A stretch of DNA of 11,280 bases from Planctomycetaceae bacterium (GTDB lineage Bacteria; Planctomycetota; Phycisphaerae; Phycisphaerales; UBA1924): positions 1 to 11,280 of the forward strand of contig JBDZUZ010000129.1 of NCBI GenBank assembly GCA_040255445.1, given 5' to 3'. Below the pieces are notes generated by a model. It was not told the origin of the DNA and did no database searches. It was given only the letters and a program-made list of their open reading frames with translations. A program made the position numbers and the translations under genes. Numbering within the stretch: the first letter of the stretch is position 1; every line of letters begins with the position of its first letter. Below are positions 860 through 6,211 of this stretch, one piece after another.

Positions 860-1336
860 TCAGCAGCCGGCTGGTGGATATATTTTGACACAAAGGCCGT
901 TCAGCGGCGCGAGCGCGGCGCTTATGAGCGGCTCGACCTCACGCCACGCGAGGCCGCCGTTGCCGCAGCCGAGGGCCGGGATAGCGACCGACCGTAGCCC
1001 AAGCCGCTGGATCTCCCCGGCCATTGCATCAATCGAGGCACCAACGTCATCCAGCCGCGAGGCTTCACGCCAGTGCCGCTTCGTTGGAACGTTGATCACA
1101 ATACAACGCGGCCCATCGTGTGCAACGCGCACAGTCAGCACCTTGCCCGGCTTGAGTTCGCCGCGAGCGCACGCTTTGCGGTAGGCGGCGAAATTGGTCG
1201 GGAACGCCTGCTTGAACTGCAGCGCGAGCCCCTTGCCCATCACGCCCACCGTATTGACGGGGTTTATCAGGCCCTCGGCATCCGAGAGCAGCAGGTCCCC
1301 GGTGGACCGTACAAACTCGGCGCCGCCGTCGCTCAA
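860..1336 (-). CDS. Stand-alone macrodomain protein of the DarG/TARG1 type (ADP-ribose-binding / de-ADP-ribosylating).
   Basis: The translation [56 protein letters not shown]...[19 protein letters not shown]...[25 protein letters not shown] matches, from memory, the conserved blocks of DarG antitoxin and TARG1 macrodomains (GDLL start, NxVNxVGVMGKGxALxFK, KxHWR, PxLGCGxGGLxW). The start is uncertain. TTG at 1336-1334 overlaps the asnS stop (TTGA). The first in-frame ATG at 1480 would overlap asnS by 148 nt and is disfavoured. Confidence 0.78.
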
Positions 1337-2775
1337 AACTCCGCCTGCTTGGGCGCCCGCGGGAACGGGATCACATCGCGGATGTTCTGCATCCCCGTCA
1401 GGAACATCATCGCGCGCTCGAAGCCCAGCCCGAAGCCCGCGTGCGGCACCGTGCCGTAGCGGCGCAGGTCGCGGTACCACCAGTAGTTCTCCTTCGGCAG
1501 CCCCATCTCGTCGATGCGCCGGTCGAGCACATCCAGCCGCTCCTCGCGCTGCGACCCGCCGATGATCTCGCCGATCTTGGGCACCAGCACATCCATCGCC
1601 GCGACCGTGTCGCCGGGCGCGTTGTCCGTGCCCGCATCGTTGAGCCGCATGTAGAACGCCTTGATCTGCTTGGGGTAGTTGATCAGGATCACCGGCTGCT
1701 TGAAGTGCTCTTCGGTGAGATAGCGCTCGTGCTCACTCTGCAGGTCCGTGCCCCACTTGACGGGGAACTCGAACTTCTTCTTGGCGTTCTGCAGGATCGA
1801 GACCGCCTCGGTGTAGGGCAGCCGCCGGAACGGCGTCTCCTGCACATGCTTGAGCCGCTCGATCAGACCGTTCTCGATCCGCTCATCGAAGAACTTCATG
1901 TCGTCGGCCCGCTCGGTGAGCACGGCATCGATCATGAACTTGATGAAGTCCTCGGCGATCTCGCTGTCGCGCATCAGGTCGCAGAAGGCCATCTCCGGCT
2001 CGATCATCCAGAACTCGGCCAGGTGGCGGCTGGTGTTGCTGTTCTCGGCGCGGAAGGTCGGGCCGAAGGTGTACACGTTCGAGAGTGCGCAGCAGTAGGT
2101 CTCGACATTGAGCTGGCCCGACACGGTGAGATGCGACTCCTTGCCGAAGAAGTCTTCCTTGTAGTCGATCGCGCCGGTTGAGTCCTTGGGCCCGCCCGCC
2201 CGCGGCGGGTTCACCGCATCCAGCGTGCTCACGCGGAACATCTGCCCCGCGCCCTCGCAGTCGCTCGCGGTGATGATCGGCGTGTGGACGTAGTAGAAGC
2301 CCCGTTCGTGGAAGAAGCGGTGCACCGCCATCGAGAGGCAATGCCGCACCCGCGCCACCGCGCCGAAGGTGTTGGTGCGGACGCGCAGGTGCGCCTGCTC
2401 GCGCAGGTACTCGAAGGTGTGCCGCTTGTTCTGCACCGGGTATGTATCCGGGCTCTCGACCCAGCCGGTGACCTTGATGCTGCTGCCGCGGACCTCGACC
2501 GCCTGCCCCTTGCCCTGGCTGGCGACGAGTTCGCCCTCGACCTCGACAGCGCAGCCGGTGGTCAGCTTCTTGATCTCTTCAAAGTTGGCGAGCGCGCCGT
2601 CGCCGCCGCCGGGGGCGACGACCTGGATGGGGTCGAAACACGACCCATCCGACACCGCCACGAAGCACAGGCCGCCTTCGGCCTTGCTCTCGCGGTTGGT
2701 GCGGACCCACCCCTTGATCGTGAGCTTCGTCCCGACCGGGGCTTTGAAGGCATCCGCCACGCGCATCCACTGCAT
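1333..2775 (-). CDS. asnS: Asparagine--tRNA ligase (AsnRS).
   Basis: Near-colinear match to E. coli AsnS along its whole length, as recalled: [10 protein letters not shown]...[114 protein letters not shown]. The start is set at ATG 2775 ([10 protein letters not shown]...), preceded by AAGAAGGGA 7 nt upstream. The ORF-track extension to 2913 is rejected. Confidence 0.97.
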
Positions 2776-2950
2776 ACCGCTGTCCCTTCTTTGGAGCCCG
2801 CGGCCGACCCGGCGGCGGGGCCTCCATGGTAGGAATCCCGCCGACACCCCCGATTCCGCCGCACCCGGGCCGCTGGGATGCCGATAATGCAAGCGGACCT
2901 GACCGAATCCCAAGAATGCATCCGGTGGCGCGGGCTATCACCGCGCCCGA

Positions 2951-2958
2951 AAGGGGGA
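2951..2958 (+). promoter_or_regulatory. Shine-Dalgarno sequence for the flotillin gene.
   Basis: AAGGGGGA, 5-nt spacer to ATG 2964. Confidence 0.7.
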
Positions 2959-2963
2959 CCCAC

Positions 2964-4652
2964 ATGGGCATGATGTTCCTGATCGTCGGCGTGGTGCTCG
3001 CGCTCGCCATTCTTGTCAGCGTGCCGCGGATCCCGGGGGCGGCGCTCAAGGGCGCGGCCGCGGCGTTCGCGCTGCTGCTCGTCATCGCCGGGTTGCTGCT
3101 GTCTTCGGCGGTGTATGTGAGCGCCGACCGCGTCGGCATCGTCTCGAAGAACCTCTTTGGCGCCAGCCTCAAGGACGGCAAGATCATCGCCATCGACGGC
3201 GAGATGGGCGTGCAGGCCGATGTGCTCCCGCCCGGGTGGCACTGGGGCTATTGGCCGATCGTGTACAGCGTCGACACCGTTGCGCTGACCGAGGTGCCCT
3301 CGGATCAGGTCGGCCTCATCGAGGCCAAGGACGGCCTGCCCCAGGAGCCGGGCCAGCTCTTCGCGCCCGAGTTCAAGCAGGCCGAGTTCCAGAAGATGCT
3401 CGATGCGCGGTACTTCCTGACCGACGGCCGCGGCCGCAAGGGGCCGCAGTCGTCCGTGCTCACGCCCGGCAAGTACCGGCTCAACACGCAACTGTTCACC
3501 ATCCAGATGGTGCCGCAGACCGAGGTGGCGCAGGGCGAGGTCGCCGTCATCAAGGCGAACTTCGGCGCCGAGCCCTCGATCCAGATCAAGGGCGACGGGG
3601 GCGAGGGCGACATCTTCCTCGCCAAAGAAGGCGAGATGGGCGTCCGCGCCCGGCCCCTCCCGCCCGGCAAGTACCCGCTGAACACAAGGGCCTTCACCAT
3701 CGTCGAGATGTGGACCACGCAGATGATCGCCCATTACGCCGGCGGCACGACCTCCAACCCGACAAGCGGAGCCCCCCAGCGCAGCCGCGGCGGTACGCCC
3801 CGCGGCGGGCCAGAGTCCGAAGAACGCGAGATCACCGTCCGCACCAGCGATGGGTTCACCTTCCCCGTCGATGTGCGGATCGAGTACCTGATCCGCCCAG
3901 AGAACGCCCCCCTCGTCGTCGCGCGTCTCGGCAGCGATGAGGACGAGCGCTTCATGAACGCGCTCAACTCCGCCGTCCGCGCCATCTTCCGGAACAACGC
4001 AGAGGGCGTCCGCGCGCTCGACTACGTTCAGCAGCGGTCGCACCAGGAGTCCCAGTCTCTCGAGATGCTCTCCGATCAGATGGCGCGGTTCGGCGTGACC
4101 ATCACCGCCGTCCGCATCGGCAACGTCGGCGATGAAGCCTCGCTGGGGGCCCTGCTCAAGACCCAGACCGACCGCGAGATCGCCAAGCAGGAACTCATCA
4201 CCTTCCAGGAGCAGCAGAAGGCGGCCGAGCAGAAGAAGGAACTCTCCCGCGCCACCCAGGAGGCCGAGGAAGAGAAGCGGCTGGCGACCGCGGCGTACGC
4301 CGTGAAGATCGCCGAGGAGGAGCAGAAGCGCAAGGTGATCGAGGCGCAGGCCGAGGCAGAGGCGATCGGGATTCGCGCTGAGGCCCAGGCGCTGGCGTAT
4401 CAGCAGATCGCGCTGCAGATCGGCAAGGGCAACGCCGCGCTGGTGGAGCTGCTCAAGATCGTCGGCGAGCGGAACATCCAGATCACGCCGCGGGTGCTGA
4501 TTACCGGCGGGAGTGGTGGGGGTGGCAATGGGAGCGGCAACAGCGGCGAGACCACCGCACTGATCGGCACGATGCTGGACCACATGGTCTCGCGGGAAGA
4601 AGATGCCCCGCAGGCCCGCGGCCGGGTGACGCCGACCTCCGGGGGGAACTGA
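2964..4652 (+). CDS. Flotillin-like SPFH/band-7 membrane protein (YqiK/FloT family).
   Basis: Strong SD AAGGGGGA (2951-2958) 5 nt before ATG 2964. Two N-terminal hydrophobic helices. SPFH-like region. Long charged coiled-coil with EA/KQ repeats (QEAEEEKRLATAAYAVKIAEEEQKRKVIEAQAEAEAIGIRAEAQALAYQQ). Gly-rich tail ITGGSGGGGNGSGNSG, as in YqiK/FloT C-termini. Confidence 0.9.
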   Translation: MGMMFLIVGVVLALAILVSVPRIPGAALKGAAAAFALLLVIAGLLLSSAVYVSADRVGIVSKNLFGASLKDGKIIAIDGEMGVQADVLPPGWHWGYWPIVYSVDTVALTEVPSDQVGLIEAKDGLPQEPGQLFAPEFKQAEFQKMLDARYFLTDGRGRKGPQSSVLTPGKYRLNTQLFTIQMVPQTEVAQGEVAVIKANFGAEPSIQIKGDGGEGDIFLAKEGEMGVRARPLPPGKYPLNTRAFTIVEMWTTQMIAHYAGGTTSNPTSGAPQRSRGGTPRGGPESEEREITVRTSDGFTFPVDVRIEYLIRPENAPLVVARLGSDEDERFMNALNSAVRAIFRNNAEGVRALDYVQQRSHQESQSLEMLSDQMARFGVTITAVRIGNVGDEASLGALLKTQTDREIAKQELITFQEQQKAAEQKKELSRATQEAEEEKRLATAAYAVKIAEEEQKRKVIEAQAEAEAIGIRAEAQALAYQQIALQIGKGNAALVELLKIVGERNIQITPRVLITGGSGGGGNGSGNSGETTALIGTMLDHMVSREEDAPQARGRVTPTSGGN

Positions 4653-4772
4653 ACGGGCGTGGAGTTCGTCCGGTAAGTCCAAACACGAACCCAACAGGTG
4701 TGCGGGCCGTACCTATACTGACGGTGCCGCCAACGCGGGGCGTGTAGTCTGCACAAGGGTCGGAGGACTTCA

Positions 4773-5312
4773 ATGAAAACCAGCACCTCCGCGATGGAAG
4801 TGGTCGAGTACCTCCAATGGCTGGCTTCCAATGAGCTCGCGGACGATGAGAGTTCGCCGCTGACCAACCTGATGGTTCAGAAGCTCCTGTACTTCGTGCA
4901 GGGGTGGAGCCTCGCCGAGACCGGCCAGCCGCTCTTCCGCGAGTCGATCGAAGCGTGGGATTACGGGCCTGTTGTGAAGGATGCGTATCAGGAGCTCAAG
5001 GTCTTTGGCAAGGCCGCGCTCCCGCTGATGCCGCGTCTTCGCACCACACTGACCGAGCACGAACAGGAACTGATCCGCGGCGTGTGGGACCGCTACAAGA
5101 ACTACTCCGCCTACGGCCTCATGCACCTAAGCCATCGCGAGCGTCCTTGGCGCGAGGCCGCGAAGGGCAAGACGATTCCGCACGAGGCCATGAAGCAGAG
5201 CTTCCTCGAGCAGATGCGGCAGGCCGAAGCGCGGCTCGCCGCCGCGTGGGATCGGATCGACAGCGCTGCCCGGACCAACACGCAGCAGATGTTCGGACGC
5301 GAGGCGATCTGA
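4773..5312 (+). CDS. Panacea-domain (DUF4065, SocA/GepA-like) protein, putative antitoxin.
   Basis: SD GGAGGA (4762-4767) 5 nt before ATG 4773. The translation contains VQKLLYFVQGWSLAETGQPLFRESIEAWDYGPVVKDAYQELK, which matches my recollection of the DUF4065/Panacea core (KLQKLLYyaqg...lf.e.ieAw.yGPV...vY). Stop TGA overlaps the ATG of the next ORF (TGATG). Confidence 0.65.
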   Translation: MKTSTSAMEVVEYLQWLASNELADDESSPLTNLMVQKLLYFVQGWSLAETGQPLFRESIEAWDYGPVVKDAYQELKVFGKAALPLMPRLRTTLTEHEQELIRGVWDRYKNYSAYGLMHLSHRERPWREAAKGKTIPHEAMKQSFLEQMRQAEARLAAAWDRIDSAARTNTQQMFGREAI

Positions 5313-5702
5313 TGCAGTTCCGCATCGGGCAGGTCTTCCACCTCAGCGAAGTCCCGCCCCTTGCCGGAGGCGATCCCAAGGACCGGTTCGTCGTGCTCAT
5401 CGGCCCCCCCGGGGCTTGACAAGCGTCCCGGGGCGTTGGTCGTCGTCGCCGCCGTCTCCAGCCGAGCGCCCGATGACTCGACGGATTATGACGCCGTGCC
5501 GATGCCCAACCGTGCGGATTTTCCATCGACGCCGGCTCCTTTCGATCGTCCCTGCTGGTGCTTTCCGCGCTGGGTCTTCCGGATCGATCGCGCCAAGCTC
5601 GGTCCGAGCCGCGGCTACATCTCGGGAGCACGGCTGCAGAGCGTGATCGAGGCGGTGGCGCAGCGTGCCGAGAATGGGCACGGGTTCCCCGGTCTTCTCT
5701 GA
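5312..5702 (+). pseudogene. MazF/PemK/Kid-family toxin gene, disrupted by a +1 frameshift in a C7 homopolymer.
   Basis: Frame 2 (5312-5419) encodes MQFRIGQVFHLSEVPPLAGGDPKDRFVVLIGPPGA*, which aligns with the Kid/PemK N-terminus (GEIWLVSLDPTAGHEQQGTRPVLIVT). Frame 3 (continuing to 5702) encodes ...LVVVAAVSSRAPDD...CWCFPRWVFRIDRAKLGPSRGYISGARLQSVIEAV, which aligns with Kid PVVVPVTSGG...CDQPRTIDMKARGGKRLERVPETIMNEVL. Removing one C from the run at 5404-5410 joins them into a ~129-aa ORF. Confidence 0.6.
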
Positions 5703-5752
5703 CACGCGCCCGCGCCAAGCCCATGCCGCGGCGGATCTCATACCCTCCGCCC

Positions 5753-6211
5753 ATGTCACCCACCGCCGTCGCGTTTCTTGGAATCGGCCTGGCGATGCTC
5801 GCCGGCGTCACCACCGCCATCCAGCCCGCCATCAACGCCCGCTTCGGCTCGCTGATGCCCTCGCGGCTGCACGGCTCGGTCGTCAACTTCGTCACCGGCC
5901 TGGCGGCGATGCTGATCGTCTGCCTGATCGTCCGCACGCCGCTGCCCAAGGCCGAGGCTCTCGCCCGCGCTCCGTGGTGGAGCTGGCTGGGCGGCCTCTG
6001 CGGCGCGTTCTTCGTGACCATGGCGATCATGCTCGTGCCCCGCCTGGGCGCTGCGGCGTACCTCACCGCGATGGTCGCGGGCATGATGATCGGCTCGCTG
6101 GTCATCGATCACTTCGGGATGCTGGGTCTGGATGTCCGCGCTGTGACACCGGGCCGGATCATGGGCATCGTCCTGATCCTGGCGGGCGTGGGCTGCGTGC
6201 GGTTCCTGTGA
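5753..6211 (+). CDS. DMT-superfamily small membrane transporter, YdcZ/DUF606 family.
   Basis: 152 aa with 4-5 hydrophobic helices. WLGGLCGAFFVTMAIMLVPRLGAAAYLTAMVAGMMIGSLVIDHFGMLGL fits the DUF606 pattern (GG..GA..V.....P..G......GQ...S...DHFG..G). The upstream ORF-track extension to 5558 is Arg-rich and is rejected. Confidence 0.82.
   Translation: MSPTAVAFLGIGLAMLAGVTTAIQPAINARFGSLMPSRLHGSVVNFVTGLAAMLIVCLIVRTPLPKAEALARAPWWSWLGGLCGAFFVTMAIMLVPRLGAAAYLTAMVAGMMIGSLVIDHFGMLGLDVRAVTPGRIMGIVLILAGVGCVRFL

What the first reader, a model, noticed from the sequence alone, without database searches (positions are those of the whole stretch)
5402..5419. Toxin reading frame broken exactly at a C7G4 homopolymer: sequencing error, phase-variable switch, or fixed toxin inactivation
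The sequence GGCCCCCCCGGGG (C7 at 5404-5410, then G4) coincides with the point where homology to MazF/PemK jumps from frame 2 to frame 3. One fewer C gives an uninterrupted ~129-aa toxin ORF. Homopolymers of this length are classic slipped-strand mispairing sites and also classic sequencing-error sites. The three readings have different biology. As drawn, the antitoxin is intact and the toxin is a pseudogene (an orphan antitoxin). If the run slips, the result is a heterogeneous ON/OFF toxin. If it is a sequencing error, the toxin is intact.
Basis: seen in the sequence. Interest (0 to 1): 0.65.

Follow-up and report, generated by a model that had tools for sequence, protein, structure and literature searches.

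The report
Frameshifted MazF-like toxin beside PanA antitoxin
A two-gene toxin-antitoxin module in an uncultured Phycisphaerae bacterium has an intact Panacea-type antitoxin, but its MazF-type RNase toxin gene is broken by one extra base in a run of seven Cs; this is most likely an ordinary recent inactivating mutation, and less likely a sequencing error or a switch.

Summary
C7 lies at 5404-5410, G4 at 5411-5414, and a premature TGA at 5417-5419. Homology to a MazF-fold family runs from frame 2 into frame 3 exactly there. Removing one C, or one G, gives a 129-aa protein. That protein scores 127 bits against a family HMM built without it, which equals the member median. It folds with pLDDT 92 and superposes on solved MazF toxins. 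The break lies in a variable loop where relatives also have Pro-Pro(-Gly). The upstream partner is an intact Panacea-domain antitoxin (PanA), not a MazE-type antitoxin. A PanA with a MazF-like toxin is a published combination, and one other metagenomic locus carries the same pair with an intact toxin.

No close ortholog exists in any collection searched, so C6 and C7 could not be compared across genomes. The only other record, a Logan assembly of SRR28167102, is 100% identical over 3.8 kb and also has C7. Other C/G runs of 5-6 bases sit in open reading frames.

My estimate:
- genuine, recent slippage mutation giving a toxin pseudogene and an orphan PanA: about 0.6
- read or assembly artefact: about 0.2
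- true phase variation: about 0.08
- +1 recoding at CCC-C: about 0.04

This is an ordinary finding of low novelty.

The parts
4773..5312 (+). panA: intact 179-aa Panacea-domain (SocA-like) antitoxin gene. Its TGA stop (5310-5312) overlaps the toxin ATG (5312-5314).
   Evidence: Pfam SocA_Panacea, E=1e-21, 78.4 bits against a cut-off of 25.7, covering profile positions 1-112 of 113. Homologs of 186-210 aa align over 72-100% of it.
5312..5419 (+). Toxin gene, 5' part in frame 2: 35 codons ending at the premature TGA 5417-5419. It encodes strands beta1-beta2, including the K-D-R motif.
   Evidence: Translation. It scores 37 bits against the family HMM. It was called as a 35-aa gene in the Logan contig and in the protein collection.
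5404..5414 (+). C7 (5404-5410) followed by G4 (5411-5414): the site of the one extra base. C6G4 or C7G3 would restore the frame.
   Evidence: It falls in the loop between strands 23-31 and 42-49 of the predicted fold, where relatives carry PP or PPG.
5409..5702 (+). Toxin gene, 3' part in frame 3: about 95 codons up to TGA 5700-5702. It encodes the rest of the MazF fold, including the V-S-S and PCW-x-PRW motifs and the C-terminal helix.
   Evidence: Translation. It scores 83 bits against the family HMM. GC3 is highest in this phase, 0.76. Profile and structure matches to MazF extend across it.

Best explanation
This is a chromosomal PanA-PanT toxin-antitoxin module of an uncultured Phycisphaerae (Planctomycetota) bacterium. 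The antitoxin gene (4773-5312) encodes an intact Panacea-domain protein. It is translationally coupled, through a TGATG overlap, to a toxin gene of a divergent MazF/PemK endoribonuclease subfamily.

The toxin's Pro-Pro-Gly loop codons (GGC CCC CCG GGG) formed a C6G4 tract. Replication slippage added one base, C6 to C7 or less likely G3 to G4. Translation now ends after 35 residues, before the Ser/Thr-bearing strand and most of the fold, so no active RNase is made.

The lesion is recent, because nothing else in the gene has decayed. The locus is therefore a toxin pseudogene with a still-intact orphan PanA.

Shown: the tract, the frame break, the family and fold assignment, the PanA identity, the lack of other decay, and C7 in a second assembly. 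Inferred: that the extra base is biological rather than technical, that the intact protein would be a toxic RNase neutralised by PanA, and the direction of the mutation.
For: - Frame break at the tract, with a single-base repair giving 129 aa.
- 86 relatives, almost all uninterrupted ORFs of 120-140 aa aligned across the break.
- 27 of 31 aligned members hit Pfam PemK_toxin, best E=1.2e-15.
- The family profile hits solved MazF6, MazF9, S. aureus MazF and EndoA at E=4e-10 to 1e-7 over the full length.
- AlphaFold2 model with pLDDT 92.3 and pTM 0.86. Foldseek top hits are all MazF, probability 1.0, TM 0.7-0.8.
- The repaired protein scores 127.4 bits against an HMM built without it, against a member median of 127.5, so there is no decay beyond the one base.
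- PanA: PF13274, E=1e-21.
- The same pairing recurs with an intact toxin: in L006/L007 a PanA 38% identical to this one is followed 14 nt later by a family member.
- PemK/MazF-like PanT toxins are published (PMC8832971).
- An independent assembler working on raw reads (Logan, SRR28167102) gives 3,824 bp 100% identical to the window, including C7.
- Three of the four other C/G runs of 6 lie inside ORFs that stay open; the fourth, at 4641-4646, is six bases from the stop of the SPFH ORF, so the contig is not riddled with homopolymer errors.
- A second family member (P0037, locus L090, JGI metagenome) is independently frameshifted near a G5 run. This shows that such toxin lesions recur.
Against: - No read-level data were available, and the Logan run may be the same read set as the NCBI contig. 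The two records may therefore share one systematic error.
- The gene is otherwise perfect, which is also what a sequencing or assembly error would look like.
- No ortholog exists to show that C7 is inherited.
- Toxicity and neutralisation are untested.
- The window protein alone is below Pfam's gathering score (18.1 against 23.1 bits).
Confidence: 0.6

Rival explanations
1. Sequencing or assembly artefact. The organism carries C6G4 (or C7G3) and an intact, functional PanA-MazF-like module, and the extra base is a homopolymer miscall carried into the consensus.
For: - The break is at the longest homopolymer of the contig.
- The tract lies in a GC-rich self-complementary context.
- The gene shows no other defect and scores at the family median.
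- Both records may derive from one read set. The clusters are singletons with sources NCBI and Logan.
- The short Logan contig (3.8 kb) suggests modest coverage.
Against: - Two different assemblies agree base for base over 3.8 kb. That argues for accurate reads, in which 7-base homopolymer indels are rare. This is established knowledge for Illumina-type data; the platform here is unknown.
- Three of the four C6/G6 runs, and the C5/G5 runs that fall in confident genes, lie in ORFs that stay open; the G6 at 4641-4646 is too close to its ORF's stop to test. This is unlike homopolymer-error-prone data.
Confidence: 0.2
2. Phase-variable (contingency) switch. The C tract slips at a high rate, so the population mixes toxin-ON cells (C6, C9) and toxin-OFF cells (C5, C7, C8), and the consensus happened to catch OFF.
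For: - A homopolymer lies in the 5' third of the ORF.
- C6 and C9 give full-length proteins, while C5, C7 and C8 are OFF.
- The repaired codon pair CCC-CCG is not used by any of the 12 other Pro-Pro pairs in the contig's genes, which mostly break C runs with CCG-CCC. This is a weak hint that the tract is unusual.
Against: - Seven bases is at the low end for high-frequency switching. This is established knowledge from Neisseria, Haemophilus and Campylobacter contingency loci, where tracts are usually 8 or more.
- The tract is explained by family-typical Pro-Pro-Gly residues.
- C/G runs of 7 or more are depleted in the contig, 1 against 3.35 expected.
- No length polymorphism was seen between the two records.
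- Relatives carry no comparable tract, and the toxin in the one other locus with this PanA pairing has no Pro-Pro here.
Confidence: 0.08
3. Translational recoding. C7 is the true genotype, but ribosomes shift +1 on CCC-CCC-G, by tRNA-Pro re-pairing during a Pro-Pro-Gly stall. They thereby make some full-length toxin, possibly more when EF-P or m1G37 function is compromised.
For: - CC[C/U]-[C/U] motifs are documented +1-slippery sites, with up to about 1% frameshifting against a background below 0.003%, rising 8-fold without m1G37 (PMC4519876).
- The 0-frame encodes P-P-G, an EF-P-dependent stalling motif (established knowledge), followed two codons later by UGA-C.
- A +1 shift yields exactly the family-consistent sequence IGPPGLDK.
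- The downstream frame is fully intact.
Against: - There is no Shine-Dalgarno-like stimulator upstream of the tract.
- The stop codon is not adjacent to the slip codon, unlike in prfB.
- The local RNA structure is no better than shuffled sequence, z=-0.62.
- The frameshift is not conserved. Relatives, including the PanA-linked one in L006/L007, are single ORFs.
Confidence: 0.04

Closest known systems
PanAT systems with EndoA/PemK/MazF-like PanT toxins (Kurata et al. 2022, PMC8832971; NetFlax, PMC10440598)
   Same: A Panacea-domain antitoxin sits immediately upstream of, and overlapping, a small toxin with the MazF fold. PemK is listed among PanT domains, and two MazF-like PanTs (P. moraviensis, B. 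ruminantium) were shown to inhibit protein synthesis.
   Different: The toxin belongs to a divergent subfamily, at most 41% identical to anything in 1.8 billion representatives. Its relatives mostly have other, non-Panacea partners. The host is a Phycisphaerae MAG. The toxin gene is interrupted. No functional data exist.
Canonical MazEF/PemIK/Kis-Kid type II modules (e.g. M. tuberculosis MazF-mt3/MazF6, S. aureus MazF, B. subtilis EndoA)
   Same: The fold matches (Foldseek TM 0.7-0.8). The profile-level sequence similarity covers the full length. The Arg of the K-x-R-P motif and a Ser/Thr at the end of strand 3 are retained.
   Different: The antitoxin is not a MazE, PemI or AbrB-type protein. 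Sequence identity to solved MazFs is only 14-24%. The family has a distinctive PCWA-x-PRW motif. The window protein is below the PF02452 gathering score.
Homopolymer-tract contingency (phase-variable) genes of Neisseria, Haemophilus and Campylobacter
   Same: A mononucleotide run early in an ORF, whose length decides whether the gene is in frame.
   Different: The tract has only 7 bases. No polymorphism is documented. Nothing suggests the tract is maintained by selection. The gene class and lineage are not known for this mechanism.
Programmed or leaky +1 frameshifting (prfB; CCC-C slippage by tRNA-Pro)
   Same: A CCC-C slippery motif allows perfect re-pairing in the +1 frame, with a weak UGA-C stop nearby.
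   Different: There is no upstream SD-like stimulator, the stop is not in the A site at the slip codon, and the frameshift is not conserved among homologs.
SocAB (Caulobacter type VI TA; SocA is the founding Panacea protein)
   Same: The antitoxin shares the Panacea domain. NCBIfam SocA_antitoxin matches at E=5e-20.
   Different: The score of 71.9 bits is far below the equivalog cut-off of 190, and the toxin is MazF-like, not SocB. No ClpXP-adaptor role can be inferred.

Membership tests
MazF/PemK toxin family (PF02452) | Sequence match to the Pfam model at or above the gathering score | tested here: not met
   The repaired window protein scores 18.1 bits, E=0.0031, against a cut-off of 23.1. 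The alignment covers residues 15-117 and spans the break. At family level, 27 of 31 aligned relatives match at E<=0.01, best 1.2e-15.
MazF/PemK toxin family (PF02452) | MazF/CcdB-type SH3-like beta-barrel fold with a C-terminal helix | tested here: met
   AlphaFold2 gives pLDDT 92.3 and pTM 0.86. The top 50 Foldseek PDB hits are all MazF, EndoA or MoxT, with probability 1.0 and TM 0.62-0.81. The family profile hits solved MazF chains at E=3.7e-10 to 3e-6.
MazF/PemK toxin family (PF02452) | Catalytic Arg (strand 2, x-R-P motif) and Ser/Thr at the end of strand 3 | tested here: inconclusive
   K23-D-R25 and V48-S49-S50 align with the family consensus K-x-R-P and V-x-S-T, and with RRP in MazF6. 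P26 is replaced by F, as in family member P0021. Assigning catalytic roles rests on knowledge of B. subtilis and E. coli MazF and was not tested.
MazF/PemK toxin family (PF02452) | Sequence-specific endoribonuclease activity and growth inhibition | not testable with these tools
   This needs expression of the repaired ORF.
PanAT toxin-antitoxin systems | Antitoxin carries a Panacea domain (PF13274/DUF4065) | tested here: met
   78.4 bits against a cut-off of 25.7, E=1e-21, covering profile positions 1-112 of 113.
PanAT toxin-antitoxin systems | Conserved two-gene architecture with an adjacent or overlapping toxin, recurring in other genomes | tested here: met
   There is a TGATG stop/start overlap at 5310-5314. 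In L006/L007 a PanA 38% identical to this one is followed 14 nt later by an intact member of the same toxin family. The pairing is rare: only 2 weak hits among 80 other PanA loci.
PanAT toxin-antitoxin systems | PanA neutralises the cognate toxin | not testable with these tools
   This needs a co-expression assay.
Phase-variable contingency locus | Tract-length polymorphism within or between populations | tested here: inconclusive
   Only two records exist. Both have C7 and they may come from the same reads. No reads were available.
Phase-variable contingency locus | Tract longer than, or maintained beyond, what the coding sequence requires | tested here: not met
   The tract is explained by the Pro-Pro-Gly codons typical of the family loop. 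Runs of 7 or more are depleted in the contig. The only hint otherwise is the atypical CCC-CCG codon pair.
Programmed +1 ribosomal frameshift (prfB-like) | Slippery P-site codon with re-pairing in the +1 frame | tested here: met
   CCC CCC G at 5405-5411.
Programmed +1 ribosomal frameshift (prfB-like) | Stimulators: an upstream SD-like element and a slow or stop codon in the A site at the slip | tested here: not met
   The upstream sequence GTGCTCATCGG has no SD-like element, and UGA lies two codons after the run.
Programmed +1 ribosomal frameshift (prfB-like) | Conservation of the frameshift among homologs | tested here: not met
   Homologs are single ORFs. The one other frameshifted member (L090) is broken at a different site.

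The most novel reading that the evidence does not exclude
C7 is the true and maintained genotype, and toxin synthesis depends on a +1 shift of tRNA-Pro on CCC-CCC-G during an EF-P-dependent Pro-Pro-Gly stall. The amount of active MazF-like RNase would then report on the state of the translation apparatus (EF-P, m1G37, proline supply). This would be a toxin gated by recoding rather than by antitoxin decay alone.
Probability: 0.04. Interest if true: 0.75.

Novelty: new member of a known kind. Interest (0 to 1): 0.2.

Why it matters
If the lesion is real, it is one more case of a toxin-antitoxin module decaying toxin-first through homopolymer slippage and leaving an orphan Panacea antitoxin. That matters for annotation: the two fragments should be flagged as one pseudogene, and the antitoxin labelled PanA rather than MazE-like. 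It also helps in counting functional TA loci in Planctomycetota.

The analysis also defines a divergent MazF subfamily (motifs CPPLDG, K-x-RP and PCWA-x-PRW) that pairs with several unrelated upstream partners, including PanA. This adds a small data point to the partner-swapping picture of TA evolution. It does not open a new question unless read data reveal tract heterogeneity or recoding.

Tried and rejected
- The word-indexed protein search with the repaired toxin found no hit.
- Scans with the repaired toxin of genome contigs, metagenome contigs and viral contigs found no relative, so no C6-versus-C7 comparison across orthologs is possible.
- Synteny through asnS: the nearest genomes are Phycisphaeraceae and Phycisphaerales MAGs, 79% and 74% identical in AsnRS. 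They lack the SPFH-PanA-toxin block next to asnS.
- Exact-protein look-ups of PanA and of the 35-aa fragment found only the one Logan contig. Both clusters are singletons.
- A MazE-type antitoxin is rejected, because the upstream gene is Panacea.
- An ancient, decayed pseudogene is rejected, because the repaired protein scores at the family median.
- An RNA-structure stimulator is rejected. The 9-bp stem 5407-5415/5425-5433 exists, but the region folds no better than shuffles, z=-0.62.
- The promoter and terminator scan of 4500-5900 found nothing above background.
- PADLOC gave no defence-system match for PanA or the toxin.
- The idea that short family hits show a recurrent break in the same loop is rejected. 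Of four checked, two are intact with mis-called starts (L091, L092), one lacks its N-terminus (L089), and one is frameshifted but at the K-R-R-P motif (L090).
- A literature search for the run accession found no paper.

Full report
**Observation.** The window reads ...ATC GGC CCC CCC GGG GCT TGA... around 5399-5419. C7 lies at 5404-5410, G4 at 5411-5414 and TGA at 5417-5419. An ATG at 5312 is in frame 2 and overlaps the TGA stop of the upstream gene, giving TGATG at 5310-5314. It opens a 35-codon ORF ending at that TGA. Frame 3 is open from the tract to TGA 5700-5702. Deleting one C gives a 129-aa ORF. C9 gives 130 aa, and C5 and C8 are out of frame. One C7/G7 run in 11.3 kb is fewer than the 3.35 expected from dinucleotide shuffles. 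The run itself is therefore not remarkable. What matters is that it coincides with the frame break.

**What the broken gene is.**
- Alone, the repaired protein matches Pfam PemK_toxin only weakly: 18.1 bits, E=0.003, below the 23.1-bit cut-off. The alignment covers residues 15-117 and crosses the break.
- An exhaustive HMMER search of 1.84 billion representatives found 86 relatives. The best full-length one is 41% identical. Almost all are 120-140 aa and align in one stretch over query residues about 3-120.
- The alignment shows a distinct subfamily with the consensus IRxGxIYW..CPPLDG..K.RPV[IV]V...VVA.ST...LP...TGL..PCWA.PRW...L...G.
- 27 of 31 aligned members hit PemK_toxin, best E=1.2e-15.
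- The family profile hits solved MazF6/MazF-mt3, MazF9, S. aureus MazF and B. subtilis EndoA over their full length, at E=4e-10 to 1e-7.
- An AlphaFold2 model of the repaired protein has pLDDT 92.3 and pTM 0.86. Its 50 best Foldseek matches in the PDB are all MazF-type toxins, with TM 0.62-0.81.
- The break falls at residues 33-35, in the loop between strands 23-31 and 42-49. This is the least conserved part of the family, and several relatives also have Pro-Pro there. P0010 has exactly PPG.

**State of decay.** I built an HMM from 71 family members without the window sequence. The repaired protein scores 127.4 bits against a member median of 127.5. The N fragment scores 37 bits and the C fragment 83 bits. 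Third-position GC peaks in frame 2 before the tract (0.88) and in frame 3 after it (0.76). Both values are within the range of the contig's accessory genes. The single extra base is therefore the only visible defect. That rules out an old pseudogene. It does not separate a recent mutation from an artefact.

**The partner and the system.** The upstream 179-aa gene is a Panacea-domain protein: PF13274, 78.4 bits, E=1e-21, nearly full profile coverage. It falls below the SocA equivalog cut-off. The locus is therefore a PanA-PanT module and not a mazEF pair. Kurata et al. list PemK among PanT domains and validated two EndoA/PemK/MazF-like PanTs that inhibit protein synthesis (PMC8832971). NetFlax lists MazF/PemK among the commonest folds (PMC10440598).

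The nearest PanA homologs are only 38-42% identical. One of them, P0089 in loci L006 and L007 from two samples, is followed 14 nt downstream by an intact member of this same toxin family. The pairing is therefore real and recurrent. It is also rare: among 80 further metagenomic PanA loci, only two have weak hits to the family HMM downstream. Other family members sit behind unrelated small proteins or a DUF6941 gene. This fits the partner-swapping picture of TA evolution.

**Provenance and independent records.** The cluster table shows the 35-aa fragment and PanA as singletons with sources NCBI and Logan. The longest contig is 11,280 bp, so the window is a whole NCBI contig. A Logan assembly of run SRR28167102 yields a 3,824-bp contig that is 100% identical to window 2044-5867 and includes C7. 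I cannot tell whether that run is the read set behind the NCBI contig.

No close relative of the toxin exists in the GTDB species genomes, JGI metagenomes, IMG/VR or the protein collections. The nearest genomes by AsnRS are Phycisphaeraceae and Phycisphaerales MAGs, at 79% and 74% identity. They lack the SPFH-PanA-toxin block at asnS.

**Weighing the readings.**

*For a genuine lesion.*
- Two assemblers agree exactly over 3.8 kb, which implies accurate reads.
- The four other C6/G6 runs and the many C5/G5 runs do not visibly disrupt any ORF: three of the four C6/G6 runs lie well inside ORFs that stay open, and the fourth is six bases from an ORF's stop.
- Toxin genes of this family are found broken elsewhere. 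P0037/L090 is frameshifted at the K-R-R-P motif next to a G5 run, and P0014/L089 lacks its N-terminal third.

*For an artefact.*
- The break sits at the longest homopolymer of the contig.
- The gene is otherwise perfect.
- The two records may share the same reads.

*For phase variation.* There is only the geometry, meaning that C6 and C9 are ON, plus a weak codon-usage oddity. None of the 12 other Pro-Pro pairs in the contig uses CCC-CCG, and most use CCG-CCC, which breaks C runs. Against it:
- The tract is short.
- It is explained by family-typical residues.
- Long runs are depleted in the contig.
- No polymorphism is seen.

*For recoding.* CCC-C is a documented +1-slippery motif, with up to about 1% frameshifting and more without m1G37 (PMC4519876). 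The 0-frame encodes the EF-P-dependent stalling motif P-P-G followed by UGA-C. Against it:
- There is no upstream SD-like stimulator.
- The stop is not adjacent to the slip codon.
- The local RNA fold is unexceptional, z=-0.62.
- Homologs are single ORFs.

My estimates are: genuine recent slippage mutation 0.6, artefact 0.2, phase variation 0.08, recoding 0.04, other 0.08.

**Mechanism (most likely).** The ancestral gene encoded a MazF-fold RNase neutralised by PanA, with the two genes translationally coupled. Slippage on the C6G4 tract created by GGC-CCC-CCG-GGG added one base. Translation now stops after strands 1-2, upstream of the Ser/Thr strand, the PCW-x-PRW core and the C-terminal helix, so the product cannot fold or cleave RNA. 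PanA remains intact as an orphan antitoxin. Leaky +1 slippage at CCC-C could still give traces of full-length toxin, which PanA would be expected to neutralise. The steps from toxicity onward are inferred and not shown.

**Verdict.** The finding is ordinary. It is a new, divergent member of a known kind of system carrying a common kind of lesion. Read-level data would settle the remaining ambiguity.

Noticed in passing
window 860-1480 (-): A stand-alone macrodomain protein directly downstream of asnS matches the DarG antitoxin macrodomain strongly (PADLOC DarG E=1.4e-60, profile positions 5-147 of 329; Pfam Macro E=2.5e-18). No DarT-like gene is adjacent. It may be a second orphan antitoxin-like gene on this contig, or simply a TARG1-type ADP-ribose hydrolase.
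   Followed up: partly
L090 480-891 (JGI 3300052987, protein P0037): Another member of the toxin family is frameshifted. HMM positions 3-27 are in one frame and 25-121 in the next, with the break at the K-R-R-P motif beside a CCGGGGG run.
   Followed up: yes
L089 551-829 (Logan SRR28520287, protein P0014): This family member lacks the N-terminal third. No frame upstream encodes the IRxGxIYW/CPPLDG part, so it looks like a truncated remnant.
   Followed up: partly
L005 757-1982 and L092 673-1800: Two family toxins sit downstream of a DUF6941 protein (151-171 aa) plus a small ORF (72-86 aa). This is a recurring three-gene arrangement that differs from the PanA pairing. The small ORF may be the antitoxin.
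   Followed up: no
window 5407-5434: CCCGGGGC occurs twice, at 5408-5415 and 5427-5434. Bases 5407-5415 can pair with 5425-5433 in a 9-bp stem whose loop holds the premature UGA. The region as a whole folds no better than shuffled sequence, z=-0.62.
   Followed up: partly
window 5404-5414: Deleting one G (C7G3) restores exactly the same 129-aa protein as deleting one C (C6G4). The extra base cannot be assigned to the C run from sequence alone.
   Followed up: yes
window, all confident genes: The 12 other Pro-Pro codon pairs are CCG-CCC (6), CCG-CCG (4), CCC-CCC (1) and CCA-CCA (1). None is CCC-CCG, the pair that creates the long C run in the toxin. The sample is small and the cause is unexplained; it could reflect foreign origin of the module or chance.
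   Followed up: no
window 2826-4652 (+): A 608-aa SPFH/Band 7 membrane protein gene ends 121 nt upstream of panA on the same strand (Pfam Band_7 E=1.5e-12). Neither it nor the TA pair lies next to asnS in the nearest Phycisphaerae MAGs.
   Followed up: partly
L091 141-443 and L092 1501-1800: The database proteins P0028 and P0045 look N-terminally truncated. In fact their genes are intact, and the start codons were called too far downstream. Short members of this family in protein databases are therefore not reliable evidence of truncation.
   Followed up: yes
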